From assembly GCA_964480695.1 (NCBI GenBank), contig CAYZPO010000001.1, forward strand, positions 2,160 through 64,368: a stretch of DNA of 62,209 nucleotides, written 5' to 3'. Positions 18,080-39,647 of this stretch are shown here, piece after piece. The stretch is from an uncultured Gammaproteobacteria bacterium (GTDB lineage Bacteria; Patescibacteriota; Patescibacteriia; UBA9934; CAZDDW01). Each line of letters opens with the position of its first letter. The stretch's first letter is position 1. A model generated the notes under the pieces. The model worked only from the letters and a program-made list of their open reading frames with translations, did not search any database and was not told where the DNA came from. The position numbers were made by a program, and so were the translations under genes.

Positions 18080-18103
18080 GCTTGTTACCACGTGGTAACA
18101 AGC
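18080..18103. repeat. parS-like 24-bp perfect palindrome (copy 1)
   Basis: GCTTGTTACCAC|GTGGTAACAAGC; core GTTACCACGTGGTAAC. Confidence 0.9.
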
Positions 18104-18425: not shown

Positions 18426-18449
18426 GGGTGTTATCACGTGATAACACCC
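18426..18449. repeat. parS-like 24-bp perfect palindrome (copy 2)
   Basis: GGGTGTTATCAC|GTGATAACACCC; core GTTATCACGTGATAAC, identical to the core of copy 3. Confidence 0.9.
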
Positions 18450-21274: not shown

Positions 21275-21804
21275 TATCCTTCTCCTGGGAGCACTTCGTA
21301 CCCAAAGACCGCATGAATGGCACTCGCTGATGATTCTTTCGCGAATATTTTGCCGAGCGCGCGGGAGAGCTTGCGTGTCTCCTTCTCCCATTCATTGGAA
21401 GGGCTGGCGACTCCGCCATTTGCGATTATTTTTCCCTCAATCAATGTAATGGCACCACATGTCGAACCGTAGCCTAGTCCCTGCCAAAATGGACTCTGCC
21501 AAGCGCCAAGACCGTTCGCAATTCTCGGTCGCCAGGAAGGATGTCGATGGCAGAGAGTGGTAAGGCGACCTCGTGAGTTCTTCGGAAGTCTCCTTCGGAT
21601 GTCCCCCGTTAGCATCATCGCGGTTCCAACGATAGCCCAGAGCACAGGTACTCCCTGCTGTTCGCCGCTGCGGTCCTTGCGGCGTTGCTCTTGGTATCCA
21701 TCCGCAAGCCAATACACAACCAACGCAACTAGCGCCGGATTCGCGTGGGCAAATAGGTCGAGGCTGCCCATCTGATCTAGATAGCTATCACGCCTTTGAA
21801 CCAT
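21274..21804 (-). CDS. ABC-3C middle component (assigned by position)
   Basis: ORF 21274..21888; start ATG 21804 (MVQRRDSYLDQMGSLDLF) preceded by GGAGGGGGTGA. Sandwiched and overlapping between the effector-CTD gene and the ATPase gene, as in ABC-three-component operons. Confidence 0.55.
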   Translation of the reverse strand: MVQRRDSYLDQMGSLDLFAHANPALVALVVYWLADGYQEQRRKDRSGEQQGVPVLWAIVGTAMMLTGDIRRRLPKNSRGRLTTLCHRHPSWRPRIANGLGAWQSPFWQGLGYGSTCGAITLIEGKIIANGGVASPSNEWEKETRKLSRALGKIFAKESSASAIHAVFGYEVLPGEG

Positions 21805-23005
21805 CACCCCCTCCAGTTGATTTCGTGATGAGTTTTCGAAATCGCGGGTGCCATCCGATTTGTGGAGGCATTTCTGGGCCGTCAGCAAGGATATGGAATG
21901 TGCCGGCGTGCAAATGCGTAGGTGCGTGGTTCCCGCTGATCACTGAATTCTTGCCCATACAGTCGTAGTAAGTTCGTAGTCCGCACTCTTGGTCAGTGGA
22001 AGCTAGGTGCTCAGCGCGCGATTGAGCAATACTCCACTGGTTCCGCAACTCGCTTTCGTGGTCCTGAATATCCTGTCGTCCAACGAGATCTTCGTCGAGA
22101 AGTCGGCCGCGCTCCTGTTTTGCCTTGTGGAAGAAATCGATTGCCTCGAGACGTGCCTTCTCGGATGCATCTATCAGCTCAAGTTGTCTTTGATAGGTAC
22201 GGGATGCCTCGCCAGCAGCGATCAATTCGTTCGAGTCGATATGGGCATCCGCGTAGGCAAAGCGCAGGTCAACCTTCGAGCACGTCTGGAACAGCGAATA
22301 TAGCGCGCGTTTTTGTTCAAAGCCCCGTATCCTCATGCCTGAGTGCGTAAGCCTCTCGCTAACGCAGTCGATGTACCAACCCTGCAGCCTCTCTCTGAAC
22401 TCGACCAGTTTGTGGGCTGGCACAGCATCTCGAGCAAGCGCTCGCTCCATTGCGGTTGATAGAGCGGCGATACCGACCTCTTCGCAAATCTGCAAATGAC
22501 GTAGTAGTTCGAGCCGGTCCTCGTCTTCTAGACCAAGCCAGTACTCAAACCGAGTGACTAACTCCTTGTTGGCCTTTGTGGCAGCAATTGTATCTAACTT
22601 CACTAACAGCGACTGTATTTGTTCCTCGGAACCTGATTGTGTCGATGTCAGACATTGAAGATCGTCGCACACAACTCGATTCGTCGCCAACCGGAGGCGA
22701 GGCCAATAGGAGTATTTGTTCTTCTTGCTGGCCCAGAGCCCGAGTGCCTCCCATAGACAGCGTGTTTTTGTTGTCAGCGCGCCATCATTGAGCGAGTGCT
22801 TGTCTTGCTCCATGATGGAAACGTCACCGGGGGCTGTGAGCACGCCCAAGTCGTCGTGCTCTTCCAGAGTCAGGGTCTGCTCGGGGTCCATGTCCAACAG
22901 TCGTAGTAACCCGAGTTGAACTTGCCATATGTAACCAGCGAGTGGGCCCCCGGCTGAGTCTTTCCCCATGAACGCGATGTTGCCGACTCTGATTCGAGAG
23001 GTCAA
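21788..23005 (-). CDS. ABC-3C effector: N-terminal DUF4297/Cap4-like nuclease domain plus C-terminal ABC-3C-type domain
   Basis: GGPLAGYIWQVQLGLLRLL...TLEEHDDLGVL...IMEQDKHS fits the G.GY.YQ ... E..DD ... Q.K endonuclease pattern. The remainder is helical. Confidence 0.6.
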   Translation of the reverse strand: MTSRIRVGNIAFMGKDSAGGPLAGYIWQVQLGLLRLLDMDPEQTLTLEEHDDLGVLTAPGDVSIMEQDKHSLNDGALTTKTRCLWEALGLWASKKNKYSYWPRLRLATNRVVCDDLQCLTSTQSGSEEQIQSLLVKLDTIAATKANKELVTRFEYWLGLEDEDRLELLRHLQICEEVGIAALSTAMERALARDAVPAHKLVEFRERLQGWYIDCVSERLTHSGMRIRGFEQKRALYSLFQTCSKVDLRFAYADAHIDSNELIAAGEASRTYQRQLELIDASEKARLEAIDFFHKAKQERGRLLDEDLVGRQDIQDHESELRNQWSIAQSRAEHLASTDQECGLRTYYDCMGKNSVISGNHAPTHLHAGTFHILADGPEMPPQIGWHPRFRKLITKSTGGGDGSKA

Positions 23006-23459: not shown

Positions 23460-24677
23460 TCAACTCTGCGAAATCCCCACATCTTGGGCGCTGCCCTGGC
23501 GGTTCGAAGTCAGGCCCATCCGCAGCATGACTTCAGCCTTGTGCTCGTCGGTCACGTGAGCGTAGATCTCATCGAGCATCCGTCCTTCCTTCCATCCTCC
23601 CAATTCCATCAAGGTACGTCGGTCCACACCGGCCATGGCCAGGCGAGATGCCCAGGTGTGCCTCAGCCCATGAGGATGGATGACCGGCAGACCAGCCCGC
23701 TTGCAGGCCCGGCGAAGCGACTGACCGAAGTCGTTGCGCGGCTTGTCCGGATTGGTTGGGGCCGGGAAGATCCAACCGCTACCCGGTGCCCCTACCCTCT
23801 CGTGGGCCGCTCGGAGCTCATCGCGCAACTCCGGCGTCAATGGCACGACTCGGCTTCTTCTCGTCTTGACTTGGAAACCGGACTCCTGCTGCGGTCCGAT
23901 GAACAACGTCCCCACCGGCCCGTCGTTCCATCGGATGTCCTCCCAACGACGGGAGAGAATTTCTCCCTTGCGTGCCCCGGTGTTCAGCGCCATGAGCACG
24001 GCCAGGTAGGTGATCCGGTCCCGCGTGATGGGTGGCCGGCCACGCGTGACCCGGTGCGGCTGCTTCTTCAGCGGCCGCAGTTCGTCGAGCAGCTTCACGG
24101 ACTCGGCTTCGGTCAGGTATCGGTGCGGCTGCTGGTCGTTGATCTTGACCGTGGGCAGCTTGGGCACGTCCTCGATCACCTCACAAGCCTCGGCGTGTTT
24201 GAGCGCACCGCGCAGACACCACAACTCGATAGCCAGAGTCCGAGCCCTTCGCCCAGCGTCCCTTCGCTTGCTGAAGTACGCATCGACGACGGCATAGTTG
24301 ACCTTGTCGATGGGCAGCTTACCCATGATGTCGATGAGGGCATTGGCTGACGTGCGGGCGCTTCGCGCCGTGCTGGCTGCCTTGTCACGCTTGACCACGG
24401 GCAGATAGACGTTTTCGAGGTACTCGGCCAGAGTTGGCGTACTACTCGCTGGCACCGGAGAGGAAACGACGGAAGTCCTTGGCACGTCCATTTCGCCGGC
24501 GGCCATCTTTCCCTCGAACACCTTCAGCAGCCGTCTCGCCTCGGCTGCGTCCAAGAACCCGATAGCCCGGGTGTGGGTCTTGCTGCGTTCGCCCCTCCAA
24601 CAGATGGACCAGTAGTTCTCCTTGCTGTCCGTCTCCGGATTCTTGCGCTTCCTCTTGTGAAGCCAGGCCATCGCCAT
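23460..24677 (-). CDS. Tyrosine integrase, phage/ICE type (integrase 2)
   Basis: Arm-binding-like N-terminus (YWSICWRGERSKTHTRAIGFLDAAEARRLL), core-binding domain, and catalytic HGLRHTWASRLAMAGVDRRTLMELGGWKEGRMLDEIYAHV. Confidence 0.85.
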   Translation of the reverse strand: MAMAWLHKRKRKNPETDSKENYWSICWRGERSKTHTRAIGFLDAAEARRLLKVFEGKMAAGEMDVPRTSVVSSPVPASSTPTLAEYLENVYLPVVKRDKAASTARSARTSANALIDIMGKLPIDKVNYAVVDAYFSKRRDAGRRARTLAIELWCLRGALKHAEACEVIEDVPKLPTVKINDQQPHRYLTEAESVKLLDELRPLKKQPHRVTRGRPPITRDRITYLAVLMALNTGARKGEILSRRWEDIRWNDGPVGTLFIGPQQESGFQVKTRRSRVVPLTPELRDELRAAHERVGAPGSGWIFPAPTNPDKPRNDFGQSLRRACKRAGLPVIHPHGLRHTWASRLAMAGVDRRTLMELGGWKEGRMLDEIYAHVTDEHKAEVMLRMGLTSNRQGSAQDVGISQS

Positions 24678-25134
24678 TCTCCCTACTCAACCCCAATGCT
24701 GTTGCCAACCGCTCTCGATGCAACCTCCAGGTGCGCCCTGCGCGGATTGCGGCTGTTTCCAGCTTTCCTTCTGCGAGCAAGCGGCGCAGGAGCCTCTCGC
24801 TCACCTGAAGTTCTTCAGCGGCCTGACGAATGGTCAACCACTGCGAGCCATCGCGGTTTGCATCCCCATGATATCGAGATCTATGACCTTGTACGAGGTC
24901 TTTTTTGTGTTCTACGACTTCGCGCCTGGCGCCAATGGCGACCATGACCTCCCCCCAGGAGTAGATCGCTTCACCGGCAGCCTCTCCAACGGGCTCGACG
25001 GCGGCAGTCAGCCAGGCTCGTGCCTCTGTCGGTAGACCGGGCAGAGCCTCCACAGCCTCCTCCAGCGTCAACAACGACTGGGGCGTCAGCGATGCCCGCC
25101 ACATGCGGCGCAGGTAGGTGCGCAAGGAGGACAC
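24442..25134 (-). CDS. Excisionase/MerR-like HTH protein (3' end uncertain; the ORF runs 236 nt into the integrase gene)
   Basis: WLTIRQAAEELQVSERLLRRLLAEGKLETAAIRAGRTWRLHRERL is the Xis-type 'HTH_17' pattern. The Arg/Gly-rich tail that overlaps int may not be genuine protein. Confidence 0.5.
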   Translation of the reverse strand: MSSLRTYLRRMWRASLTPQSLLTLEEAVEALPGLPTEARAWLTAAVEPVGEAAGEAIYSWGEVMVAIGARREVVEHKKDLVQGHRSRYHGDANRDGSQWLTIRQAAEELQVSERLLRRLLAEGKLETAAIRAGRTWRLHRERLATALGLSRENGDGLASQEEAQESGDGQQGELLVHLLEGRTQQDPHPGYRVLGRSRGETAAEGVRGKDGRRRNGRAKDFRRFLSGASE

Positions 25135-25250
25135 AACCTACTCCAGGCTCCGGACTTCCAGGGCGGCCCAGCCCGCGCCGGCTCCCGAAGAAGCCGACGC
25201 TTTGGCGGCCGGAACCGCTTCTCGCAGAAATTGGGTGCAGAGTCTTGAAG

Positions 25251-25508
25251 TTACGAGACTCGCTTGGAGCGCTTTCGGCGCGACTTGACGAGCCTCCAGC
25301 AGTCTGGGTTCTCCTTGTCCTGGACGAACCAAGGACACTCGCGGAGTACCCGTTCCAGGAACTTCTCGAACGGTTCGCCCGTGTCTTCCACGGTTTCGAT
25401 CCAGAGAACTTCCCAGATCCACTGCTCGAGCTTGCCCCTGTGATGCGCCTTTTCGTCGGCCATCACGTCGGCCAACAGTTCCTCCAGGGTGAACATGGAT
25501 TCGGTCAT
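25251..25508 (-). CDS. Small acidic hypothetical protein (85 aa)
   Basis: MTESMFTLEELLADVMADEKAHHRGKLEQWIWEVLWIETVEDTGEPFEKFLERVLRECPWFV... Balanced composition, unlike the overlapping Arg/Gly-rich frame. Confidence 0.5.
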   Translation of the reverse strand: MTESMFTLEELLADVMADEKAHHRGKLEQWIWEVLWIETVEDTGEPFEKFLERVLRECPWFVQDKENPDCWRLVKSRRKRSKRVS

Positions 25509-26141
25509 AGATGATTGGGTTAGGTTGAGTAGCGATGCGGGGTCGCTCTTCGCTGCCTCCCACCTGTGCCGTATCCGACCTCACCGCGCGTTCACCACGA
25601 ACTCCGAAGACACTGCCTCCTTGCTGCGCAAACAACACGGCCCGGCCAGTGCAGACCCACCGCCCCTGTCCTGTCGTCTCGGATCGCCTCTCCTCGACCT
25701 CGGAAACACCCCAGAGCCCACCCCTCTCCTCGCCGCTCGCAACGCCCACGTCAGACGTGGCGCCATCGAGGACCAAGACCTTGCCCACGCCCAGGGTTTC
25801 CCCTGAACGTGAGTGACAAGACCTCGGACATCCCTCGACCACGACCAGGACGACGAACCCTCGCTTCCCTTCGGGTGGGGGTAGGTGCGTCCTGACCTCG
25901 TCGAAAGCAGTGCCGCAAAGCCCAGCCCCGCCGCTCTCCAGATGGCGACCATCTAAAGCACGAACGAGAATCTGGAACCCCGCAGCAACTCCGCCCAAAG
26001 GAGCGAAGCCGAGGAGGAAGGGGATGGCCCAGGGCAAGCCCGGTGCCGCAGGATGAGACGGACCTGAGCGCGGCAGGAGACAGGGCAAGCGACCCCGCAC
26101 CGACCGGACCGTGGCCCGAAACAGGAAGATGTCAGCGCAAG

Positions 26142-26402
26142 CTACACCTCGGTAATCAGAATGCGATCGCCACGACTTGTGACGAGATGCCAGACGCCAG
26201 AACCAGGATCGTCTTGAGCGATCCTTTTCGACTGCTGGCAAGTACGCCGAACGGTAGCCGTGAACGTCCGCGGAACGGTCAGTCCGAACTCTCTGCGCAC
26301 CCTCTCGACCTCTGGATAGAGATCGGAGAAGTGTGCTTTTCCGCCGAGGCGAAATAGAGCTTTGAGAACTGACTGTTCCCAGGTCTGCGTGGTCGTGGGC
26401 AT
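26142..26402 (-). CDS. Small winged-helix-like protein (86 aa), Mrr-N-like
   Basis: TWEQSVLKALFRLGGKAHFSDLYPEVERVRREFGLTVPRTFTATVRRTCQQSKRIAQD..GVWHL. Confidence 0.45.
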   Translation of the reverse strand: MPTTTQTWEQSVLKALFRLGGKAHFSDLYPEVERVRREFGLTVPRTFTATVRRTCQQSKRIAQDDPGSGVWHLVTSRGDRILITEV

Positions 26403-26408
26403 AGGGAG

Positions 26409-26519
26409 CTAACCCATCTGCCAAACCAGCAGCCCGTACATCGCCCAAAGGGCAGCGACGAATCCAACGCCTTCCAGAAGAAGATGCGTGGTGGACGTTT
26501 TCTTTCGGTACTTGGCCAT
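26409..26519 (-). CDS. Possible 36-aa single-TM peptide
   Basis: MAKYRKKTSTTHLLLEGVGFVAALWAMYGLLVWQMG. Ends 6 nt before the next start. No SD seen. Confidence 0.25.
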   Translation of the reverse strand: MAKYRKKTSTTHLLLEGVGFVAALWAMYGLLVWQMG

Positions 26520-26693
26520 AGGTATGGATGGTTACGACAAGGCGGGGTCGCCTGTCCCTACCTCCCGTACCGTCGCCCAAGCCCGAACTCACCTGACGGA
26601 TTACCGGAGCCTCCTGGCTGACACCTCCTGCTGCGAGATTCTGTCGAACGTGCCCACCAGCACGCTCGCCAACTACAAAAATCCCCAACCTCC

Positions 26694-27647
26694 TCATCGC
26701 GCATCTCCTCGCGCTAAGGACCGGGGATTGTGTTTTACAAAAAACCTTGGGTTCTGCGGGGTTGCGCGACTTTCCCTGGTACAACTGTTGTAGCAGTTCG
26801 TTGTACCAGGCAGGAGCGGGCTCTCCTCGGCGAGAACGGCCCGTTGCCCACCGTCCACAAGACGCGGTGTTCGCCACAGCTGGCCGAGGATGTTGCGGCT
26901 GGTGAGTTCCTGGGCCAGAGCGAAGTACCACAGCCCCTCGGGCGCGTCCGCATCCCACAGTGCGGTGACCAGGCGGTTTCTTCGCCGCACGGTCGGTACG
27001 GTGCAGCAAACCCGCCACTCGCTGCAGCCAAGAACGGTCTGCCCAGCTTCCTTCATCTGGGTGTAGGGCTCCACCTTGTGCGTGACCACGTAGCTGGGGG
27101 ACTCGTTGCCGCAGTCCACCTCGAAGGCGACTGCAACGCGTTCGGCGGCCTCCCGCGTGAGCACGGCGATGGCGTCGGGGACCTGCACCCCCTCGCCACG
27201 GCCTACCTGAGCGCGGATGTCCTTCTCCAGCAGAAACGTCTCGAGAGAAACGCGTTTGGACCGGGCAGTGGCCACCGTGAGCGCGGCGTACAGATCCACG
27301 GTGCGAGCATGGTGCTCGAGGTTCACCCGCCCGATGCCCCGCATGGAGCGATAGTCGGCAGGCGTGCGCCCGAACGCCCGGGCCAGAACCGGCTTGGCAG
27401 CGGGGGTCAAGGTGAACCAGGAGACCTCGTGTAGCGCTCGCACATGGACTTGGATGTAGCCGAGGTCTCGCAGCTTGCGCAGCGACCTTCGAGCGATGTG
27501 GGGGTTCACGTCCAGCAAAGCGGTGTAGTGCTGGGTCGAGATGGGCTGGGCGTGAGCGATGAAGGCCAGGGCCAGCTTCTCACGAAGCGTCAGCCGTGCG
27601 TTTCCCGGTGATCGGCGCTGGGTACGGCTGGGACTGTCCAGGGTCAT
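26694..27647 (-). CDS. Replication-relaxation family protein (paralogue 2)
   Basis: ORF 26694..27731; start ATG 27647 in an ATGA overlap with the upstream gene. LTLREKLALAFIAHAQPISTQHYTALL (wHTH), NLEHHARTVDLYAAL, VPDAIAVLTREAAERVAVAFEVDCGN. Confidence 0.65.
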   Translation of the reverse strand: MTLDSPSRTQRRSPGNARLTLREKLALAFIAHAQPISTQHYTALLDVNPHIARRSLRKLRDLGYIQVHVRALHEVSWFTLTPAAKPVLARAFGRTPADYRSMRGIGRVNLEHHARTVDLYAALTVATARSKRVSLETFLLEKDIRAQVGRGEGVQVPDAIAVLTREAAERVAVAFEVDCGNESPSYVVTHKVEPYTQMKEAGQTVLGCSEWRVCCTVPTVRRRNRLVTALWDADAPEGLWYFALAQELTSRNILGQLWRTPRLVDGGQRAVLAEESPLLPGTTNCYNSCTRESRATPQNPRFFVKHNPRSLARGDAR

Positions 27648-27991
27648 CGGTTCATCCCGCTCAAGGGGCTGGTGACCGCCAGTCCACAGGCGCAGTTGAC
27701 CGCGTGCGGCACCTCGCCGCAGTGCGGGCACTCCGCGAACCCGTGTCCCTCATGAACCAGGCGACAGACCGGGCAACGCCAGGCGCCGATCAGCTCGACG
27801 GCGTGACCTCGTGGGCAGTGTCCGACTCTTCGTCGAAACGCCCACTGGACGCTCAAGTAGGTCACGACCGCGCGGGAGGCGTCGAGGCCGAGCGTGAACG
27901 GCAGTACACCCAGGGCCAGCGTCGCGACGAACAACTGTAGCAGCAGCGATCCGCGCAGCGCACCTACGCCATCGAGTAGCCAGCGCGTCAT
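27644..27991 (-). CDS. Membrane-anchored zinc-ribbon protein (115 aa)
   Basis: TM segment LLLQLFVATLALGVLPFTLGL, then HCPRGH..CPVC..CPHC..CAC. ATGA overlaps at both ends. Confidence 0.55.
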   Translation of the reverse strand: MTRWLLDGVGALRGSLLLQLFVATLALGVLPFTLGLDASRAVVTYLSVQWAFRRRVGHCPRGHAVELIGAWRCPVCRLVHEGHGFAECPHCGEVPHAVNCACGLAVTSPLSGMNR

Positions 27992-29562
27992 TCGGGCAGC
28001 TCCAGACCGGGCCGAGCGGTCCTTCGGCGCCTCGAGCGCTTTGTCTTGCTCGCGCCAGGATTCGCGCTGCGAGTTTTTCGGGGTGTTCTTGGGCTCTGGC
28101 TGGCTCTCCTCTCCCGAGTTTGCGCTTGGGCGCCATCTTGACCTCCGCCCAGAACCTGGAACGTGGTGTTTGGCACTTCCGGGGCCTCGGGCGTGCCATC
28201 CGACACGGCCACTGGTGTGGCTGCCAGCTGGTCCACCGGCACTCCGAACCTGCCGCGTCGGAACTGTTCGATGGTGGCTGGATCGAGCTGTTCAGCCTCG
28301 CGACGGGCGCGCTCGAACGGCACGGACAGGGTTCTGATGACGCGAGCTTGGCCCGAGACCATGTCCCCGAGCAGGGCGTGCCGGGGAGGAAGTCGGGTCA
28401 GGGCGTCAAGCAGCATCGTCCGTTCCTGGTCCTTGGTCAGCAACTGGTCAGGAAGCTGCGGGTTCACGCGCCGACCCGTGATGGGCAGCAAGGGTAATAG
28501 GTGCTTGATGTCCCCCAGATCCGGCCGGAACGCCACATGCAGGGCGATGTTGGTGATGAGCGAGCGTGTCAAGGAGCTGGACACCGCGTCGATTTGGGCT
28601 GCAGCCTGGTTACACAACCACAAGCCCACCTTGCGGTAGCGCGCCTGGGACAACAAGCGCTCGAAGTCCTCAGCTGCTCCCGGAGAAGGCAGCAGCGTCT
28701 GCCACTCGTCCACCGCCAGGATCACGGGCCGGGTGTCTGGTTGCACCGGCCGGCTGAACACGGCGCCAGTGAGCAAGGAGAAGACGAACGAACCCACAAA
28801 CCGGCTCAGTGGTGCCATGCCCTGCGGAGCTCCGCCCAGATCCACGACGGTGATGCCGGACTCCAGCAGGTCCGAGCCACGCAGACACGTGGGTGCGCAC
28901 AGCATCCCGCGCATGGCCGGCAACAGCAGCAGCCACTCCAGCCGAGCGCGCAGGGAGTCGCGAGAGGCCTTGGGCTCGGTGGCGAACGTGCTGAGCAGGT
29001 AGTCGCGGACTTCCGGATCTCGCACACGGCGAGCGATGGCCTCGCGGTAGTCGTCGTCGTTGAGGATGTGGATCAGGTCGTGAAGACCTCCTCCCACCTC
29101 GATCACGGCCCGGGCGAGCCAGGCCAAGATGCCGCGCATCCGCGGTCCGAGCCCGCCATCCACCAGGCCGTCCACTTGCGAGCACAGCAGGTTGGCCTGG
29201 ACCTCGATAGGCAGACCGGGGATACGACACAGTGGATTGAGGCCACTGCCGAAGCGGCCGAACAGCTGCAGCGAAGATACGCGGGACGCTGCCAAGTGAG
29301 GATGACGCTGGGCCAGCAGAGGCAGGAACCTGTCGCGCAGCAGCTCTGCAGTCTCGCCTTTCGCATCCACCAGGACTACGCCGATCCCAGGATGTGCTGT
29401 GAGCAGCTTGAGCAGGATGCTGAGCAGGAATCCACTCTTTCCCCAACCCGTGGAGCCGGTCACCAAGGCGTGGCGGCAGAGGGTTGAAAGTGGCAGCTGC
29501 AGGGATTCCTCTCCCGCCGCCCCGCGAGTCATGCCCACCGCGATCTGTTCATGGCGCGCCAT
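27988..29562 (-). CDS. TraD/VirD4/FtsK-HerA-like P-loop ATPase (coupling-protein-type DNA translocase)
   Basis: ORF to 29727; start ATG 29562 with AGGAGGTG SD. Walker A LVTGSTGWGKS, Walker B VILAVDEWQTLL, RKVGLWLCNQAAAQI. Arg/Ser-rich C-terminal tail. Confidence 0.65.
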   Translation of the reverse strand: MARHEQIAVGMTRGAAGEESLQLPLSTLCRHALVTGSTGWGKSGFLLSILLKLLTAHPGIGVVLVDAKGETAELLRDRFLPLLAQRHPHLAASRVSSLQLFGRFGSGLNPLCRIPGLPIEVQANLLCSQVDGLVDGGLGPRMRGILAWLARAVIEVGGGLHDLIHILNDDDYREAIARRVRDPEVRDYLLSTFATEPKASRDSLRARLEWLLLLPAMRGMLCAPTCLRGSDLLESGITVVDLGGAPQGMAPLSRFVGSFVFSLLTGAVFSRPVQPDTRPVILAVDEWQTLLPSPGAAEDFERLLSQARYRKVGLWLCNQAAAQIDAVSSSLTRSLITNIALHVAFRPDLGDIKHLLPLLPITGRRVNPQLPDQLLTKDQERTMLLDALTRLPPRHALLGDMVSGQARVIRTLSVPFERARREAEQLDPATIEQFRRGRFGVPVDQLAATPVAVSDGTPEAPEVPNTTFQVLGGGQDGAQAQTRERRASQSPRTPRKTRSANPGASKTKRSRRRRTARPGLELPE

Positions 29563-30181
29563 GCCCACCTCCTGGGAACATCCCGATCTCATCCTCAGCT
29601 GGGGTGCCAGCGAGAAGTGGCTCAGGTGCCTGTGGCACTCCAGCTGGAACAGCCCCGTGCTCGAGTTGCGGTGTAGGTTGCATGGGCTCGGTGATTGGTG
29701 CGCGCACGCGGAAGGTCGGTCGGACACGCACCGCGGGAACCGGAAGCGCGGCTCGGACCTTAACCAACAACAGGAACACGCCGACCACGCATACGAGGAC
29801 GAGGACGACCATGGCGCAGGCGAGCAGCACGCCCAGAGGCACCATGACCCACGTCGGATCTACCTGCTGCAGCTCGCCTGGCACCTCGACTCCAGCCAGG
29901 TAGGCGCGTGCCAGCTGGATGGTCGCCTGGGTTGCCATGGCGGTGCCCATCCAGATCACGAACAACGCGGCCAGCCCGGCGCACACCTTCCACAGCGTGC
30001 TCGTGACCTTCTTGATCCCGAACAGGCTCAAGCCCACAGCGGCGAACGCACAGGCCGTGGCCAGCGGGATGAAGATCGGTCCGGCCGGAAACCCGACGAT
30101 CCCGGCGAGCGCGGTGAACGCAGCCAGCACACCCCAGACATGAATCGACTTCACCACAGCCTCCAGGACGCGTTGAGCCAA
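29549..30181 (-). CDS. Polytopic membrane protein with a Pro-rich C-terminal tail
   Basis: Five hydrophobic segments by eye. Start is either ATG 30181 or GTG 30154/30157 (GTGA overlap with the JAB stop). Confidence 0.55.
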   Translation of the reverse strand: MAQRVLEAVVKSIHVWGVLAAFTALAGIVGFPAGPIFIPLATACAFAAVGLSLFGIKKVTSTLWKVCAGLAALFVIWMGTAMATQATIQLARAYLAGVEVPGELQQVDPTWVMVPLGVLLACAMVVLVLVCVVGVFLLLVKVRAALPVPAVRVRPTFRVRAPITEPMQPTPQLEHGAVPAGVPQAPEPLLAGTPAEDEIGMFPGGGHGAP

Positions 30182-30840
30182 TCTTGCTTTTCAAGCTCGG
30201 AAAGCAGATCGAGGTGTTGGCTCACGTCCGGAATCTCGTCGTCGCCGGCTGCAACATCGAACTCGCAGCTCGCAACCTCTACCTCCCCGGAATGTCGGTC
30301 CACGAGTGCGAGCCGCTGGGCATCCGGTCCCAGGTACACGCCCAAGCCCTCGGTGTCATTTCGGGTCGGGTCCACTACGATCCCCACTGCGTTCGGCGAG
30401 GTAAAAGTGGCTTGCGTATCGCAGTCCGTGGCACTGTAGTGCGTCCCGTAGCCTGGGTGGCTGTGCCACCACCCAACGACCTCGGCAATGGGATGGGTTT
30501 GTCGAACCTCCTTTCGCAATGCGGCCATGACCGACAGATCCGCCCAAACGAACGCGCGCTGGGCATCTGCTCCCTGGGCCTCGATGGCAGCGACGACCAA
30601 GACGAACGGTCCTTGGCCGTCCTGGCAGGGCCGGCCGACCAGCAACCCGATCGTCTCGCGTAGGGCGCTAGCTCTGGCCCATCGCCACATGACCTCGACG
30701 ACCTTCGCAAGCACATAGATCTCGGCGCAAGAGCGATCATGGTCAAACGCCAGCCACTGCTCCTCCTCGGGCAGTGGACGGGGCCTTGCCAGCGGAGACG
30801 CTCGATGGATACCCATGGATTCGAACATGGCCATCATCAC
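30151..30840 (-). CDS. JAB/MPN (JAMM) metallopeptidase, deubiquitinase-like
   Basis: Complete JAMM motif: upstream Glu (ALRETIGLLVG) and WWHSHPGYGTHYSATD (H-x-H-x7-S-x2-D). The start overlaps the E2 stop (GGGAGGTGATG). Confidence 0.8.
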   Translation of the reverse strand: MMMAMFESMGIHRASPLARPRPLPEEEQWLAFDHDRSCAEIYVLAKVVEVMWRWARASALRETIGLLVGRPCQDGQGPFVLVVAAIEAQGADAQRAFVWADLSVMAALRKEVRQTHPIAEVVGWWHSHPGYGTHYSATDCDTQATFTSPNAVGIVVDPTRNDTEGLGVYLGPDAQRLALVDRHSGEVEVASCEFDVAAGDDEIPDVSQHLDLLSELEKQDWLNASWRLW

Positions 30841-31496
30841 CTCCCTTGGATTTGGAATCTGGCACTAGGTTGACTGGGCGCACACGCATGGGTGCGGACC
30901 TTGAACGCCGGGCGAACTTGTGCAGGTGTTGCTCCGTGAGTGATGTGCTGTGGAAGCTGGGGGTAGAGCAAATTGGGGGTAATTGGGCGGCAGTTCATGA
31001 CTTGTTCCCAGTACCGAGCCGCCGCACCGCACCAGCCTGCGTAGTTGGGCCGATGTGGCTCGTCCCAGTTGAGAAGCCGAGCCACATGCACGGCCAGCTG
31101 AGCGAACAGCATCCCGCGCTTTGCCCGGCTCCAGCCATCTCCCAGGCAGACCGCGCCACTTCTTTGGTGGAAGTGCGGCGACCAAGGAATCGGGCGGGAG
31201 ACGACGCCGGCTACGGGCTCACTGTACGGATAGTTGCCTTTGGCCAGCAGGTCGAAGACCACAGTTGTACCCACGTGCGTCTGCCCCGGACCGATCATCG
31301 TGGGGATCTGGTAGGTCACCGCGTACACGCGAGCCTGGTGGCCGCGGCGGAGTGATTGGATTGGGGAGCGCCCACAGGAGGCATCATCCATTGAGCGGTA
31401 GGCGCTGACGTTCATCAGCGCGCTGCACATGGGCATGACGACCTCGTAGTCGAATTGCAGGCGCTCCCGACGTTGGGATGGGTTCAGACGGGGCAT
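30837..31496 (-). CDS. E2 (UBC)-like ubiquitin-conjugating-type protein
   Basis: SPHFHQRSGAVCLGD resembles the E2 HPN...G.IC(L/I) active-site loop. Positioned between the Ubl and JAB genes. Confidence 0.55.
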   Translation of the reverse strand: MPRLNPSQRRERLQFDYEVVMPMCSALMNVSAYRSMDDASCGRSPIQSLRRGHQARVYAVTYQIPTMIGPGQTHVGTTVVFDLLAKGNYPYSEPVAGVVSRPIPWSPHFHQRSGAVCLGDGWSRAKRGMLFAQLAVHVARLLNWDEPHRPNYAGWCGAAARYWEQVMNCRPITPNLLYPQLPQHITHGATPAQVRPAFKVRTHACAPSQPSARFQIQGR

Positions 31497-31765
31497 GGCA
31501 CCTCCCCTCGGGCACCCCCGGTGACCTGGACCACTTCGAGGGTGTCCCCATCACGCACACCGGCATGGCCGAGCGTCTGCTGGGGCAGCAGCTGCTGGCC
31601 CGTGCGTGAAAGCACCAGCGTGTAGGGTCTTTGCGCGTCGGTGGGTTCCAAGAACTGGTAGTTGACCATCTCCTGGATGGCCTGCTGGGCGGTCACCTGT
31701 TGTTCCAGGGTGACGGGGAGCGAGTCACTGGTGTTCGGACTCGTGAAAAGGACGTTGCATCCCAT
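31484..31765 (-). CDS. Ubiquitin-like (beta-grasp) protein with an internal C-terminal Gly-Gly followed by a 9-aa tail
   Basis: 93 aa: ...GVRDGDTLEVVQVTGG-ARGEVPCPV. GAAGGAGG SD. Its last 13 nt overlap the E2 start. Confidence 0.6.
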   Translation of the reverse strand: MGCNVLFTSPNTSDSLPVTLEQQVTAQQAIQEMVNYQFLEPTDAQRPYTLVLSRTGQQLLPQQTLGHAGVRDGDTLEVVQVTGGARGEVPCPV

Positions 31766-31778
31766 GAAGTAGCCTCCT

Positions 31779-33002
31779 TCAGGCTGGAGAATCGGCCGGG
31801 AAGAGGCTCATGCCCCTCTCGACCGGGTTGAACACGTCTTCGAGGTTGCCGGCGAGGCGAATCCAGCGATCGTCGTTGTCCCAGCTCGCCTGGATGATGG
31901 CCCCTGGGCCAAGGCCCAGCTCGGCTAGTGAACGGACTCTGAGGTTCTCGGCACGCTCTACGGTCAGGTCCGGCAGAATCCCAGCCGCTACGCTTTCGAC
32001 GTTCTCGTCCTTGTGGCAGGGCGCAGAACAGCGTGGGGCTTCGTGAACGGCCCACAGTGGTCGGCCCACGCTCACGGACCTACCGCAACGCGCACACGGG
32101 AGAGACTCGACAAATGGCGCTGGCAGATGGAGTTCCACTGGATCGTCATGGAGCGCTGCGAGCTCGGCGAAGATGTCTGCAGCGGCACCTTCGCCACCAG
32201 TGCGAATCTCGTGAGGCTCTGTTTCGAGTGGGTGATGAATCCCGGCACAGTCCGGATTGCTCGTCAGCTTGGCCAGAACCGATCGGCCCGTGCGCAGGTT
32301 GAGCGTCCATCGCTTTCCGGCAAGAGGAAACTCGTCGTGTAGGGCTGCGATTGCGGCGTCGGCAACCATGGCGCCAGACACCTGGGCTACGGCCTGCACT
32401 GCGGGTACGACCCCGGCAGCTTCGGCTTTTTTCGCGTACAGGGTGCATAGTCCCCGCTCGGTGCCATCTACCAAAGTGCCCATCGGACAGCGCCAACAGG
32501 GTTCGTTTTCGTCGTGATTGCGGAAGACCGAAATGGATAGGTTGAGTCCGTCGAAGCCAGCTTCCACGAATGGTGTGTGCAGCAAGCGGCAGCGCTCGGC
32601 CAGATACCCCCGGCCAACCTGGCTGTCCACAGCCGATACCACCACGTCAGCCCAGGTGATCAGGAGGTCGCCAACTTCCTGGACCTTCCCTTGATAGAAG
32701 TACGCGCGTGAGCGCGGAGCAGTCGCCAAGGCCAGGAAGCCCCGAGCCACCGCGTCTGCCTTGGGCGCATCCGCAACAAAAAACGGACTTCGCGTCCGGT
32801 TGGACGGTTCGAAGTCGTCGTAGTCCACGATGGCCAGCGTGCCGACGCCAGACAGAGCCATGGCCAGCGCGGCGTTCTGTCCCAGAGCTCCGGCGCCGAT
32901 GAGGGCGACGCGGGAGCCGAACAGGATCTCAGGCTCGTAGCCAGCCAAGCGCTCGCGAGAGAAGTGGTCAGTCGTGGGTATGACCATCGTTGGGTCCTCC
33001 AC
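31779..33002 (-). CDS. E1-like adenylating enzyme (ThiF/MoeB/UBA family)
   Basis: RVALIGAGALGQNAALAMALSGVGTLAIVDYDDFEPSNRTR (nucleotide-binding and Arg-finger pattern). CxxC pairs CWRC and CARC..CSAPC. Confidence 0.8.
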   Translation of the reverse strand: MEDPTMVIPTTDHFSRERLAGYEPEILFGSRVALIGAGALGQNAALAMALSGVGTLAIVDYDDFEPSNRTRSPFFVADAPKADAVARGFLALATAPRSRAYFYQGKVQEVGDLLITWADVVVSAVDSQVGRGYLAERCRLLHTPFVEAGFDGLNLSISVFRNHDENEPCWRCPMGTLVDGTERGLCTLYAKKAEAAGVVPAVQAVAQVSGAMVADAAIAALHDEFPLAGKRWTLNLRTGRSVLAKLTSNPDCAGIHHPLETEPHEIRTGGEGAAADIFAELAALHDDPVELHLPAPFVESLPCARCGRSVSVGRPLWAVHEAPRCSAPCHKDENVESVAAGILPDLTVERAENLRVRSLAELGLGPGAIIQASWDNDDRWIRLAGNLEDVFNPVERGMSLFPADSPA

Positions 33003-37051: not shown

Positions 37052-37073
37052 CTGTTATCACGTGATAACAGCT
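37050..37073. repeat. parS-like 24-bp perfect palindrome (copy 3)
   Basis: AGCTGTTATCAC|GTGATAACAGCT. Overlaps the TAG stop of the parB-like gene by 2 nt. Confidence 0.9.
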
Positions 37074-38088: not shown

Positions 38089-38334
38089 ATGCAGATAGCT
38101 TCGCAGGCACAACCCGATCAGGAAGCCAACCTGCTGAACGTCAAGGACCTGGGCGCCTACCTGGGCATCTCCCCCTCGGCCGTGTACCGCCTGGTCGAAC
38201 GCCGGGACATCCCGGTTTACCGCCTGCGCAGTGGCCTTCGGTTCAACAAGGCCGACGTGGAGGCCTACCTGAACTCGCGCCGCATCGAGGCTATCTCTGA
38301 TAACGAATCAACTTATGGCAGTACGAATCATTGA
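38089..38334 (+). CDS. Excisionase-family HTH protein
   Basis: LLNVKDLGAYLGISPSAVYRLVERRDIPVYRLRSGLRFNKADVEAYL. Overlaps the integrase start by 20 nt. Confidence 0.75.
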   Translation: MQIASQAQPDQEANLLNVKDLGAYLGISPSAVYRLVERRDIPVYRLRSGLRFNKADVEAYLNSRRIEAISDNESTYGSTNH

Positions 38335-39538
38335 CAATCACTGGTATGTGGACGTTCGGCACCTGGGCGTGCGACGACGGCTGAGAAGTCCGGAAGACTC
38401 GAAAAGAGGCGCGCAAGCCTACGAATCCGTCATCCGCCATCGACTGGCTTGTGGGTATAGCCTCTACAACTTCGGTCAGCACTGGGGCCAGGACGTGCCA
38501 CCTGACACGCCACATGAGCCCGCGAAGCGCGAGGAATCGCCAGAAGACGAGCCAACCACTCTCTCCAAGACCTTCAGAGTCTTTTCCGAGGAGTGGATGA
38601 ACACCTACGTGGCGACCAACAACAAGCCTTCTGAACAAAAAAAGAAGCGGCACGTCCTGAACAAGCACTTGCTTCCGGCATTTGGAGCTCTGGCGCTCCC
38701 GGACATCACCAACCTGACCATCGAGCACTACAAGGCCCAAAAACTCGTAGACAAGCTCTCAGCCAAGACCATCAACAACCAACTCTCCATTCTCCGCAAG
38801 GCGCTCACCTGCGCACGGAGTTGGGGCTTCTTGGAGACGGTCCCCGAGTTCATCTGGCTCAAGGCACAGCGGCCGGCCATCGAGTACCTCAGCGACGACG
38901 AGGTTGCTGCTCTGCAGGCGTATGGCGACGAGCCCCTCTGGTCCACCATGATTTTGCTAGGACTACGCGCAGGACTGCGGATTGGCGAACTCCTGGGCCT
39001 CCACTGGGAAGACGTGGACCTGCAGGCGAACACCCTCACTGTTCAGCGGAACCTGTCTGAGTACGACTTGGTCACGCCCAAGAACAACCGGATTCGCGTG
39101 ATTCCCCTCTCGGCTGATGTCGGCCTCGCACTCTCTGCGTGGAAGAAACGTAGTTCACCAAGACGTAAAGCAGGCTTTGTCTTTCTCAATGACGAAGGAA
39201 CTCCTCTGAACTGCTACCGAGCAGACTATGCCCTTAAGCGGATTTGTCGTCACGTCGGAATCAAGGAGTACAGTTGGCACAAACTACGGCACACCTTTGC
39301 CACACACCTCCTCGCTCGAGGAGGCGACATCCGCTACGTCCAGGAACTACTTGGACATTCAACCCTGGCCATGACCGAACGCTACACTCACGTCATGGGC
39401 TCCAAGCTGCGCAGCACAGTTGAACTACTCAGCAACAATCCACAGAATTCTGGGCAGCCCGTGGGCAGTGGAATTTCGACCATCTCCAAGGACACATCCA
39501 CCGTGTCAACCATGAGCCCCATTTCTGTGCCGTGTTAA
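38315..39538 (+). CDS. Tyrosine integrase (integrase 3), adjacent to tRNA-Glu
   Basis: N-terminal WYVDVRHLGVRRRLRSPEDSKRGAQAYE (arm-type domain). Catalytic LRIGELLGLHWEDV and HKLRHTFATHLLARGGDIRYVQELLGHSTLAMTERYTHV. Confidence 0.85.
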   Translation: MAVRIIDNHWYVDVRHLGVRRRLRSPEDSKRGAQAYESVIRHRLACGYSLYNFGQHWGQDVPPDTPHEPAKREESPEDEPTTLSKTFRVFSEEWMNTYVATNNKPSEQKKKRHVLNKHLLPAFGALALPDITNLTIEHYKAQKLVDKLSAKTINNQLSILRKALTCARSWGFLETVPEFIWLKAQRPAIEYLSDDEVAALQAYGDEPLWSTMILLGLRAGLRIGELLGLHWEDVDLQANTLTVQRNLSEYDLVTPKNNRIRVIPLSADVGLALSAWKKRSSPRRKAGFVFLNDEGTPLNCYRADYALKRICRHVGIKEYSWHKLRHTFATHLLARGGDIRYVQELLGHSTLAMTERYTHVMGSKLRSTVELLSNNPQNSGQPVGSGISTISKDTSTVSTMSPISVPC

Positions 39539-39566
39539 AAGAAAAAACGCATCCATATGGATGCGC
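39539..39566 (-). terminator. Rho-independent terminator of tRNA-Glu
   Basis: Minus strand: GCGCATCCATATGGATGCG followed by TTTTTTCTTTT. Confidence 0.7.
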
Positions 39567-39572
39567 CCTCTC

Positions 39573-39647
39573 TGGTGACCCCAGGGGGAATCGAACCCCC
39601 GTTACTAGGATGAAAACCTAGCGTCCTAACCACTAGACGATGGGGCC
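39573..39647 (-). tRNA. tRNA-Glu (anticodon TTC), CCA encoded
   Basis: The reverse strand GGCCCCATCGTCTAGTGGTTAGGACGCTAGGTTTTCATCCTAGTAACGGGGGTTCGATTCCCCCTGGGGTCACCA folds into a cloverleaf. Anticodon stem CTAGG/CCTAG, loop TTTTCAT. Confidence 0.9.

What the first reader, a model, noticed from the sequence alone, without database searches (positions are those of the whole stretch)
31484..31522. Ubiquitin-like gene encodes a precursor: Gly-Gly followed by a 9-residue tail that overlaps the E2 start
The Ubl ORF reads ...LEVVQVTGG ARGEVPCPV*, with the GG codons at 31514-31519. The nine residues after GG are encoded by the same nucleotides that carry the E2 start (ATG 31496) in another frame. Eukaryotic ubiquitin and some bacterial Ubls are made as precursors whose tail must be removed to expose the terminal Gly. 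The co-encoded JAB peptidase is the obvious candidate processing enzyme. The dual-coding overlap constrains both the tail and the E2 N-terminus, and would force 1:1 coupled translation.
Basis: partly seen in the sequence, partly recalled or inferred. Interest (0 to 1): 0.6.

Follow-up and report, generated by a model that had tools for sequence, protein, structure and literature searches.

The report
Capped ubiquitin-like precursor in bacterial operon
A small bacterial ubiquitin-like protein is made with a throw-away tail that the neighbouring peptidase most likely clips off before the protein can be attached to targets, which is a known design seen here in an unstudied family.

Summary
The sequence reads as described...VQVTGG-ARGEVPCPV*, with the GG codons at 31514-31519 and the E2 ATG at 31496. 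However, only 13 nt (four codons plus the stop) overlap the E2 gene.

The ORF is a real beta-grasp Ubl. It sits in an E1-Ubl-E2-JAB operon that recurs in 17 loci from other phyla.

The motif the family conserves is Gly84-Ala85, not Gly-Gly. Among 73 short relatives:
- Position 84 is G in 57 and A in 11.
- Position 85 is A in 57.
- Position 83 is G in only 3.
- None stops right after position 84, 22 stop after position 85, and 51 carry variable tails.

Natural Ubl-E2 fusions exist.

Best reading: this is an obligately capped pro-Ubl, trimmed by the co-encoded JAMM peptidase, most likely after Gly84. That matches what was shown for E. aridi BilA (Gly97|Ala98) and for the Caldiarchaeum pro-ubiquitin. 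A JAB-Ubl model passes its controls (0.80 against 0.38).

The overlap with E2 is ordinary, non-conserved translational coupling.

The principle is known. The family is unstudied: a YukD-type Ubl, a UBC-like E2, a single-domain E1 and a membrane-anchored JAB, carried on a mobile island.

The parts
31779..33002 (-). E1-like adenylating enzyme (407 aa, single ThiF domain)
   Evidence: Pfam ThiF 8.8e-26 over residues 27-252. The best PDB sequence matches are ThiF, MoeB and UBA7. In 17 aligned sequences the G36xGAxG41, D126, C169xxC172, C252, C303xxC306 and C325xxxC329 positions are invariant, and C186 is conserved in 16 of 17.
31484..31765 (-). Ubl precursor gene (93 aa plus stop)
   Evidence: Translation. 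Pfam YukD 7.5e-07, 30.3 bits against a cut-off of 27. AF2 model with pLDDT 86.3 and a beta-beta-alpha-beta-beta-(alpha)-beta order. Foldseek top hits are ubiquitin and SUMO, TMt 0.7-0.85.
31526..31765 (-). Beta-grasp core, residues 1-80
   Evidence: Strands at 2-8, 15-21, 48-52 and 75-80, with a helix at 26-35. pLDDT is about 88-94 except in the 41-50 block. Residues 81-93 are unstructured, with pLDDT 62-66.
31511..31516 (-). Gly84-Ala85, the family-conserved C-terminal motif. Predicted scissile bond lies between them.
   Evidence: Position 84 is G in 57 and A in 11 of 73. Position 85 is A in 57, G in 8, H in 4, S in 3 and C in 1 of 73. All 18 context-confirmed Ubls have G-A.
31517..31519 (-). 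Gly83, the first G of the 'GG'. This is a variable position in the family.
   Evidence: G in only 3 of 73. Q, R, E and S are the commonest residues.
31487..31510 (-). Variable disposable tail R86-V93
   Evidence: Tails after position 85 range from 0 to about 60 residues and share no sequence conservation.
31501..31509 (-). Shine-Dalgarno-like GAGGGGAGG for E2, lying inside tail codons R86-V89
   Evidence: Read directly. It ends 4 nt before ATG 31496.
31484..31496 (-). 13-nt overlap between the end of the Ubl ORF and the start of E2
30837..31496 (-). E2-like protein (219 aa) with a UBC fold. The catalytic Cys117 codon is at 31146-31148.
   Evidence: No Pfam hit for this protein itself, but 4 of 13 family members weakly match UQ_con. 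The profile aligns the PWSPH...G-V-C-L-G stretch to the UBE2W active-site stretch. The AF2 model (pLDDT 85) has canonical E2s as its top folds: Rad6, UbcH7 and Ubc9. C117 and H108 are invariant in 13 of 13.
30151..30840 (-). JAB/JAMM peptidase (229 aa from GTG 30840; ATG 30837 or 30834 is the likelier start)
   Evidence: Pfam Prok-JAB 2.7e-10 and JAB 1e-08. The best PDB matches are CSN5, Rpn11 and the archaeal Rpn11-like protein. JAMM residues are invariant in 18 of 18. The junction was read.
29549..30181 (-). Multi-pass membrane ORF overlapping the JAB stop (a GTG at 30154 gives a GTGA overlap)
   Evidence: Five hydrophobic 19-mers. The junction was read. There is no family hit. In all 17 homologous loci the JAB itself carries one C-terminal TM segment instead.
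27988..29727 (-). HerA/FtsK-like P-loop ATPase
   Evidence: Pfam DUF87 3.8e-05 and PADLOC mad8 3e-16. Homologues follow the JAB gene in L006, L009, L012 and L014.

Best explanation
The 93-aa ORF encodes a real ubiquitin-like beta-grasp modifier that is translated as an inactive precursor.

Proposed mechanism:
- In this family Gly84 is never the last encoded residue. It is always followed by a small 'cap' residue (Ala85 here) and often by a tail of arbitrary length and sequence.
- The operon's JAMM peptidase binds the Ubl and threads its C-terminal tail into the zinc site.
- It cuts between Gly84 and Ala85 and releases ARGEVPCPV.
- The single-domain E1 can then adenylate Gly84 and pass it by thioester to Cys117 of the UBC-like E2, and from there to target amines. 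The candidate thioester cysteine on the E1 is Cys186.
- The same peptidase probably also reverses conjugation.

Status of each step:
- Shown here: the fold, the conserved motif, the variable tails, the intact catalytic residues and a model-level JAB-Ubl interface.
- Inferred: the cleavage itself, its exact bond, conjugation and the targets.

The 13-nt overlap with E2 is ordinary start-stop coupling in a tightly packed operon. The tail is simply what the Ubl frame reads until its first stop, and it is tolerated because it is clipped anyway.
For: - Fold: pLDDT 86.3 with beta-grasp topology. Foldseek top hits are ubiquitin and SUMO, E about 1e-5 and TMt 0.7-0.85.
- A profile of 70 family members matches ubiquitin and the Caldiarchaeum Ub in the PDB.
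- Operon: ThiF E1, JAB and a UBC-fold E2. The four-gene set recurs in 17 of 17 related loci from Acidobacteriota, Chloroflexota, Actinomycetota, Myxococcota and Planctomycetota. In L020 the contig ends before any E1 gene, so E1 was seen in 16.
- Motif: 0 of 73 short relatives end at position 84, 22 of 73 end one residue later, and 51 of 73 have longer, unalike tails.
- Position 85 is His, Ser or Cys in 8 of 73. That fits a leaving-group P1' residue better than an adenylated terminus.
- All 18 context-confirmed Ubls have G-A.
- In-frame Ubl-E2 fusions occur in L014, L021, P0066, P0067 and P0082. These need a peptidase to free the Ubl.
- JAMM residues are invariant in 18 of 18.
- Complex model: 0.80 (three runs 0.80-0.82) against a best control of 0.38. 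Runs agree in at least 87% of contacts and partner pLDDT is at least 87. The mark was reached by 58 of 80 solved complexes and 2 of 110 mismatched pairs. The interface joins Ubl 79-87 and 89-90 to JAB E62, H126, H128 and S136-D139.
- Precedent 1: E. aridi BilA ends Gly97-Ala98. BilC cuts between them (Edman sequencing and crystal structure), Ala98 blocks conjugation, and homologues carry up to nine residues after the Gly.
- Precedent 2: the Caldiarchaeum pro-ubiquitin is TVGG plus a nine-residue propeptide that its Rpn11 homologue removes, and the uncut form is refractory to E1.
Against: - Nothing here shows cleavage, conjugation or expression.
- The family profile aligns G-A with ubiquitin's G75-G76, and 22 of 73 members stop exactly after the Ala. 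Ala85 could therefore be the mature terminus.
- The complex pass may come from the model's memory of solved JAMM-ubiquitin complexes. It used my own alignments and a riding zinc, unlike the calibration. It does not resolve which bond is cut.
- The 72 representative Ubls have no genomic context, so some may belong to other systems.
- The best Pfam family is YukD. By recall (the passage read cites the experiment), the founding YukD member is not conjugated.
- The window's JAB lacks the membrane anchor present in all 17 homologues, so this copy may be atypical.
Confidence: 0.6

Rival explanations
1. Same precursor logic, but the mature reactive terminus is Ala85. G84-A85 would be the counterpart of ubiquitin G75-G76. 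The JAB would remove only RGEVPCPV, and the roughly 30% of relatives that end in ...GA would need no processing.
For: The profile-to-ubiquitin alignment puts G-A opposite G75-G76. 22 of 73 relatives stop exactly after position 85 and none after position 84. In fusion P0067 the E2 Met follows directly after G-A.
Against: In E. aridi BilA, which has the same G-A ending, the cut is after Gly and the Ala blocks conjugation. Position 85 is His in 4, Ser in 3 and Cys in 1 of 73, including one protein ending ...GH, which would be an unlikely adenylation substrate. By recall, no Ubl with a reactive C-terminal Ala is known to me.
Confidence: 0.22
2. The protein is a non-conjugated YukD-type adaptor. 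The tail is never removed, and the Ubl works by non-covalent binding, for example with the membrane or ATPase components next to it.
For: The best Pfam family is YukD, for the window protein and for 39 of 70 relatives. A HerA/FtsK-like ATPase and membrane ORFs are adjacent. That ATPase has weak P-loop similarity to EccC.
Against: E1, a Cys-bearing UBC-like E2 and an active-site-intact JAB are strictly co-inherited with the Ubl in 17 of 17 loci. The small-residue C-terminal motif is conserved. No type VII secretion genes were seen in the Pfam scans of neighbours.
Confidence: 0.08
3. The tail and overlap are the functional point: a dual-coding stretch that constrains both proteins and enforces equimolar, coupled synthesis of Ubl and E2.
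For: There is a 13-nt overlap, and the E2 ribosome-binding stretch lies inside the tail codons. 7 of 18 junctions overlap by 1-13 nt.
Against: Only 4 codons are shared. 8 of 18 junctions have intergenic gaps (6 measured at 15-80 nt, 2 with unpinned E2 starts), 2 are fusions, and tail sequences are unrelated. By general knowledge, coupling raises downstream initiation but does not fix stoichiometry.
Confidence: 0.05

Closest known systems
Type II BilABCD (6C/CEHH) bacterial ubiquitination system, Ensifer aridi (Chambers et al. preprint 10.1101/2023.09.26.559546; passages and sections 5 and 7 read)
   Same: The gene set is the same four: Ubl, E2, JAB and E1. 6 of the 17 related loci even share the Ubl-E2-JAB-E1 order. 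The Ubl has a conserved Gly followed by Ala and up to nine non-conserved residues, and the JAB pre-processes the Ubl after that Gly. The system is found in defence islands.
   Different: The E1 here is a single ThiF domain of about 405-430 aa, not an inactive plus active adenylation domain with a CYS insertion. The E2 is UBC-like with an S-P-H motif, not CEHH. No Bil chain appeared among the listed PDB sequence or fold matches. The JAB is membrane-anchored in the relatives. The Ubl matches Pfam YukD.
Caldiarchaeum subterraneum ubiquitin operon (Hennell James et al. 2017, PMC5654768, passages read; Fuchs et al. 2018, PMC6043591, listing and abstract start only)
   Same: Pro-ubiquitin of the form ...TVGG plus a nine-residue propeptide, removed by an Rpn11-type JAMM peptidase, with the uncut form inert to E1. 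It has a UBC-type E2. The window JAB's best PDB matches include this archaeal Rpn11-like protein at 1.1e-11, and the Ubl profile matches its Ub at E 0.002-0.004.
   Different: No RING E3 gene was found in the operon. The family motif is G-A, not G-G. The JAB sits inside the operon and is membrane-anchored in relatives. The setting is a bacterial mobile element.
Bub (6E/DUF6527) operons and the 'tri-ligase' Ubl systems of conflict islands (Gong et al. PMC11601603, part 1 read; Kaur et al. 2020 PMC7159879, passages read)
   Same: Ubl-E2 fusion proteins occur, with a JAB proposed to release the Ubl. They associate with caspase-like, STAND and TIR conflict genes, as in the acidobacterial relatives here.
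   Different: In the window there is no DUF6527 protein, no JAB-E1 fusion, and no RING E3 or EAD1 domain. Ubl and E2 are separate genes in 15 of the 17 related loci and in the window.
YukD (Pfam PF08817) of type VII/ESX secretion loci
   Same: It is the best-scoring Pfam family for the Ubl (30.3 bits against a cut-off of 27), and a neighbouring FtsK/HerA-type ATPase is present.
   Different: The passage of Iyer et al. 2006 read reports YukD as not conjugated, and it has no E1, E2 or JAB partners. Here all three partners are present, and a conserved small-residue C-terminal motif exists.

Membership tests
Ubiquitin-like beta-grasp modifiers | Beta-grasp fold | tested here: met
   AF2 pLDDT 86.3 with the expected secondary-structure order. 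Foldseek top 50 are ubiquitin, SUMO, NEDD8 and ISG15.
Ubiquitin-like beta-grasp modifiers | Flexible C-terminal tail ending in, or processed to, a conserved Gly | tested here: met
   Gly at position 84 in 57 of 73, Ala in 11 of 73. The tail at 81-93 is unstructured. The processing itself was not tested.
Ubiquitin-like beta-grasp modifiers | Cognate E1 and E2 with catalytic cysteines | tested here: met
   E1 C186 is conserved in 16 of 17. E2 C117 is conserved in 13 of 13. Both genes flank the Ubl.
Type II BilABCD | E1 with an inactive plus an active adenylation domain and a CYS insertion | tested here: not met
   One ThiF domain over residues 27-252 of 407. All 17 relatives are 404-431 aa. BilD is not among the PDB matches at E<=0.001.
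Type II BilABCD | CEHH-type diverged E2 | tested here: not met
   The E2 profile matches only canonical E2s in the PDB. The top 50 folds are all eukaryotic UBC enzymes. 4 of 13 members weakly match UQ_con and none matches a Prok-E2 family.
Type II BilABCD | Conserved Gly followed by up to nine non-conserved residues | tested here: met
   The window has exactly nine residues after Gly84.
Type II BilABCD | JAB cleaves after the conserved Gly | not testable with these tools
   There is only a model-level interface.
Type I Bil (6d, ISG15-like) | Ubl with two beta-grasp domains, and an E2 lacking the classical active-site motif | tested here: not met
   The Ubl has a single beta-grasp domain. The E2 aligns with the UBE2W H-P-H...C stretch. 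No PADLOC model beyond the generic E2, JAB and E1-E2 models matched. Whether that library holds Bil models was not checked.
Bub (6E) | DUF6527 protein, with Ubl-E2 and JAB-E1 fusions (type I) or an E2-E1 fusion (type II) | tested here: not met
   The genes are separate in the window, and there are no DUF6527 hits among the six operon proteins. Ubl-E2 fusions do occur in relatives.
Archaeal/eukaryote-like Ub operon (Caldiarchaeum type) | UBC-type E2 and Rpn11-type JAMM peptidase | tested here: met
Archaeal/eukaryote-like Ub operon (Caldiarchaeum type) | Small RING-finger E3 in the operon | tested here: not met
   There is no RING family among the Pfam hits of the six operon proteins, and no free ORF space between E1 and JAB. 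No dedicated RING search of the island was made.
Pfam YukD (PF08817) | Score above the gathering cut-off | tested here: met
   30.3 bits against 27. 39 of 70 relatives match at E<=0.01.
Pfam YukD (PF08817) | Type VII secretion context and a non-conjugated role | tested here: not met
   No T7SS families were found among the neighbours scanned. There is only a P-loop-level match of the ATPase to EccC. E1, E2 and JAB partners are present.

The most novel reading that the evidence does not exclude
This operon represents a further, uncharacterised family of bacterial ubiquitination systems, distinct from CBASS-Cap2, Bil I/II and Bub. Its features would be:
- a YukD-type Ubl that is obligately capped (Gly-Ala plus a junk tail, or fused to its own E2);
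- a canonical UBC-fold E2;
- a ThiF-size E1;
- an Rpn11/CSN5-like JAMM peptidase tethered to the membrane.

Uncapping at the membrane would then be the switch that arms the pathway. The module travels on integrative elements and defence islands. Here it has been captured by an organism with a genome of about 1 Mb whose relatives lack it.
Probability: 0.35. Interest if true: 0.65.

Novelty: new variant of a known kind. Interest (0 to 1): 0.42.

Why it matters
Pro-Ubl trimming by a co-encoded JAMM peptidase has already been shown in one bacterial and one archaeal system, so the principle is not new.

What is new is the setting:
- A rare family: 17 loci found in a pattern scan of one genome per 185,579 species, and none in the viral contigs.
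- It combines the most eukaryote-like parts, a UBC-fold E2 and an Rpn11/CSN5-like JAB. The Ubl family profile matches ubiquitin itself in the PDB.
- It also has an always-capped Gly-Ala terminus and a membrane-anchored peptidase.

If the cap really is an obligatory safety catch, the family offers a clean test of how bacteria keep a ubiquitination cascade silent until needed. It also adds a data point on the bacterial ancestry of UBC-type E2s.

Tried and rejected
- Word-index search with the Ubl found only itself. The exhaustive HMMER search was needed.
- 40 relatives of the host genome were searched with the E1. There were no real matches, only two generic ThiF-level hits at about 1e-4. The operon is therefore not lineage-inherited.
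- A viral-contig scan with the E2 alignment gave 91 pattern matches, none confirmed.
- I searched the loci for the window's island genes (Replic_Relax, the 626-aa ORF, HTH_17, the integrases and others). Only L012 (Replic_Relax) and L011 (integrase) matched by phmmer. A later Pfam scan showed Replic_Relax in L014 too.
- A slippery site in the 13-nt overlap that could give a Ubl-E2 fusion by frameshifting: I saw none by eye and did not pursue it.
- I tried to decide G84|A85 against A85|R86 from the natural fusions. Both registers fit the E2 N-terminal consensus, so this did not discriminate.
- Literature searches for this exact operon type found the Bil, Bub, CBASS, Caldiarchaeum and Aravind-group surveys. 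None describes a YukD-type Ubl together with a UBC-like E2, a single-domain E1 and a membrane-anchored JAB. I therefore write 'not found with these searches', not 'unpublished'.
- Burroughs et al. 2011/2012, the likeliest place for such a description, could not be read (not held).
- Supplementary files were not opened. Only the legends of Chambers' Supplementary Table 1 and Figure 4b (the BilA logo) were seen, and these could refine the comparison.
Full report
**Observation**

On the minus strand, ORF 31484-31765 translates to a 93-aa protein ending ...LEVVQVTGGARGEVPCPV*.
- The codons for Gly83 and Gly84 are at 31517-31519 and 31514-31516.
- Nine residues follow, and the stop is at 31484-31486.
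- The next ORF (30837-31496, 219 aa) starts at ATG 31496.

That start is the true one, because 12 homologues share the N-terminus M-x-R-L-x-P.

The two ORFs share 13 nt: four codons plus the stop. The first five tail codons do not code for E2. They hold a purine-rich ribosome-binding stretch (31501-31509). The reading is therefore right, but the 'dual coding' is much shorter than stated.

**The operon**

The gene order on the minus strand is as follows.

| Gene | Coordinates | Evidence |
|---|---|---|
| E1 | 31779-33002 | ThiF 8.8e-26 |
| Ubl | 31484-31765 | Pfam YukD 7.5e-07, above the cut-off |
| E2-like | 30837-31496 | see below |
| JAB | 30151-30840 | Prok-JAB 2.7e-10 |
| multi-pass membrane ORF | 29549-30181 | |
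| HerA/FtsK-like ATPase | 27988-29727 | |

The junctions are tight. There is a 13-nt gap between E1 and Ubl, a 13-nt overlap between Ubl and E2, a TGATG/GTGA-type overlap between E2 and JAB, and a GTGA overlap between JAB and the membrane ORF.

*E2.* It has no Pfam hit of its own. The evidence that it is a UBC-fold enzyme is:
- A profile of 13 family members aligns its PWSPH...G-V-C-L-G stretch to the active-site stretch of human UBE2W.
- Its AF2 model (pLDDT 85.4) has only canonical eukaryotic E2s among the top 50 folds.
- The nearest ESM-Atlas clusters carry UQ_con in a minority of members.
- 4 of 13 members weakly match UQ_con and none matches a Prok-E2 family.
- Cys117 and His108 are invariant.

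*JAB.* Its best PDB sequence matches are CSN5, Rpn11 and the Caldiarchaeum Rpn11-like protein, at about 1e-11. Its JAMM residues E62, H126, H128, S136 and D139 are invariant in 18 of 18 aligned sequences.

*E1.* It is ThiF-sized in all 17 aligned sequences. It has an intact nucleotide-binding motif, two Cys4 sites and Cys186 conserved in 16 of 17.

**The Ubl**

The AF2 model built on 70 relatives has pLDDT 86.3. It shows a beta-grasp order of elements and an unstructured tail at residues 81-93. Foldseek places it with ubiquitin and SUMO. The family profile finds ubiquitin and the Caldiarchaeum Ub in the PDB.

**Relatives**

The word-index search found nothing. The exhaustive search found 98 representatives at E<=0.001. 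A scan of one genome per species with the E2 alignment returned 17 loci in five phyla. All 17 carry the Ubl, E2 and JAB genes. All but the truncated L020 also carry E1.

Of the 98 representatives, 72 are at most 140 aa. I aligned these with the window protein, giving 73 sequences. The 26 longer ones were set aside. They are poly-Ubls, Ubl-E2 fusions, or Ubls with other C-terminal domains.

| Position | Residue counts among 73 |
|---|---|
| 83 | G in 3; Q, R, E and S are commonest |
| 84 | G 57, A 11, other 5 |
| 85 | A 57, G 8, H 4, S 3, C 1 |

None of the 73 ends at position 84. 22 end at position 85. 51 go on for one to about sixty further residues with no similarity to each other.

All 18 context-confirmed Ubls (17 loci plus the window) read x-G-A at this place. 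A different motif, G-A, is conserved exactly where it should be. The window's first Gly is incidental.

**Junctions**

Across the 18 operons:
- The Ubl stop overlaps the E2 start by 1 nt in L011.
- It overlaps by 4 nt in L009, L010, L015 and L019.
- It overlaps by 10 nt in L017 and by 13 nt in the window.
- It lies 15-80 nt upstream in six loci.
- It lies further upstream, with unpinned E2 starts, in L005 and L013.
- In L014 and L021 there is no stop at all, and the Ubl runs in frame into E2.
- L012 is odd: its E2 match is on the other strand.

The representatives P0066, P0067 and P0082 are also in-frame Ubl-E2 fusions.

Tails therefore look like whatever the frame reads until its first stop. 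The overlap is not a conserved feature.

**Mechanism**

Two read precedents fit closely.

1. In E. aridi type II Bil, BilA ends Gly97-Ala98.
 - The JAB BilC cuts between them.
 - Ala98 blocks conjugation.
 - Homologues carry up to nine residues after the Gly.

2. In Caldiarchaeum, ubiquitin is made as TVGG plus nine residues.
 - The Rpn11 homologue removes them.
 - The uncut form is refractory to E1.

A complex model of the window's JAB (residues 1-195, with zinc) and Ubl scored 0.80 against a best control of 0.38.
- The runs agree in at least 87% of contacts, and partner pLDDT is at least 87.
- The mark was reached by 58 of 80 solved complexes and 2 of 110 mismatched pairs in calibration.
- Ubl residues 79-87 and 89-90 touch the JAMM residues.
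- This pass may reflect memory of solved JAMM-ubiquitin complexes, and it does not fix the scissile bond.

I favour cleavage after Gly84 for three reasons:
- the E. aridi precedent;
- the His, Ser or Cys found at position 85 in 8 of 73 relatives;
- the Gly-or-Ala pattern at position 84.

The rival, a mature Ala85 terminus, is kept at about 0.2. The profile aligns G-A with ubiquitin's G75-G76, and stops fall right after the Ala in 22 of 73.

**Comparison with known systems**

The operon works like Bil and like the Caldiarchaeum system but is not a member of either.
- The E1 lacks BilD's two-domain-plus-CYS architecture.
- The E2 is UBC-like, not CEHH.
- No Bil chain appears among the listed PDB matches.
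- There is no DUF6527 protein (Bub) and no RING E3 (Caldiarchaeum and the 'tri-ligase' systems read).
- The five operon types 6a-6e of Iyer et al. 2006 do not describe this combination.

I found no paper describing it. The Burroughs 2011/2012 surveys could not be read, and supplements were closed.

**Context**

- The operon lies in a stretch of 60-66% G+C between flanks of about 45-55%.
- It is followed by Replic_Relax, HTH_17 and integrase genes.
- The genome is 1.05 Mb and about 97% complete.
- None of 40 relatives of that genome has the E1.
- L009, L012 and L014 share the HerA-like gene, and at least L012 and L014 share Replic_Relax.
- The five acidobacterial loci instead put the operon between a TIR-STAND-HEAT protein, a DUF4407 protein and, in three of them, a caspase-like peptidase.

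This points to a conflict or defence role, or a mobile-element role. That role is inferred, not shown.

**Verdict**

The sequence observation is right apart from the extent of the overlap. The precursor idea is well supported and has direct experimental precedent. The GG, dual-coding and 1:1 claims are not supported. The item is a new variant of a known kind and is of moderate interest.

Noticed in passing
window 30151-30840 and 29549-30181; L005-L021 JAB genes: All 17 homologous JAB proteins are 283-443 aa. Each has one hydrophobic segment about 200-330 residues in, so they are membrane-anchored peptidases. The window's JAB is only 229 aa with no such segment. Instead, a separate multi-pass membrane ORF starts at its stop codon.
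   Followed up: partly
L014:5371-6678, L021:2983-3894; proteins P0066, P0067, P0082: Natural in-frame Ubl-E2 fusions. The G-A motif is followed directly by the E2 N-terminus, with no stop between.
   Followed up: partly
window 23460-33002: The operon plus the HerA-like ATPase, Replic_Relax (26694-27731), an HTH_17 excisionase-like gene (24442-25134) and an integrase (23460-24677) form a block of about 10 kb at 60-66% G+C inside a lower-G+C genome of 1.05 Mb. 40 relatives of that genome lack the E1. This looks like an integrative element of foreign origin. No flanking att repeats were found.
   Followed up: partly
window 19349-23005: Two genes with DUF3732 and with the ABC-3C C-terminal domain 7 (Pfam CTD7) lie next to the island. 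They suggest an ABC-three-component conflict system.
   Followed up: no
window 38315-39647: A second tyrosine integrase (38315-39538, +) abuts tRNA-Glu (39573-39647, -). This is a typical integration site.
   Followed up: no
window 18083-18100, 18429-18446, 37053-37070: An 18-nt palindrome, TGTTATCACGTGATAACA, occurs twice exactly and once at 89% identity. It looks operator-like.
   Followed up: no
L005, L007, L008, L010, L013: In the acidobacterial relatives the four-gene operon is preceded by a TIR-STAND-HEAT protein of about 1200 aa and followed by a DUF4407 protein. In three of them a caspase-like peptidase also follows. Only the L005 representatives were scanned against Pfam.
   Followed up: partly
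proteins P0019, P0026, P0047, P0048, P0089; P0085, P0094, P0104: Among the Ubl representatives are proteins with two to four tandem Ubl domains. Others are Ubls whose G-G-G or G-G stretch is followed by a 100-170-residue extension, and in two of these the extension has a hydrophobic segment.
   Followed up: no
L012:5956-6612: In this locus the E2 match lies on the strand opposite to E1, Ubl, JAB and HerA, and it lacks about the first 40 residues. This may be an inversion or a mis-assembly.
   Followed up: no
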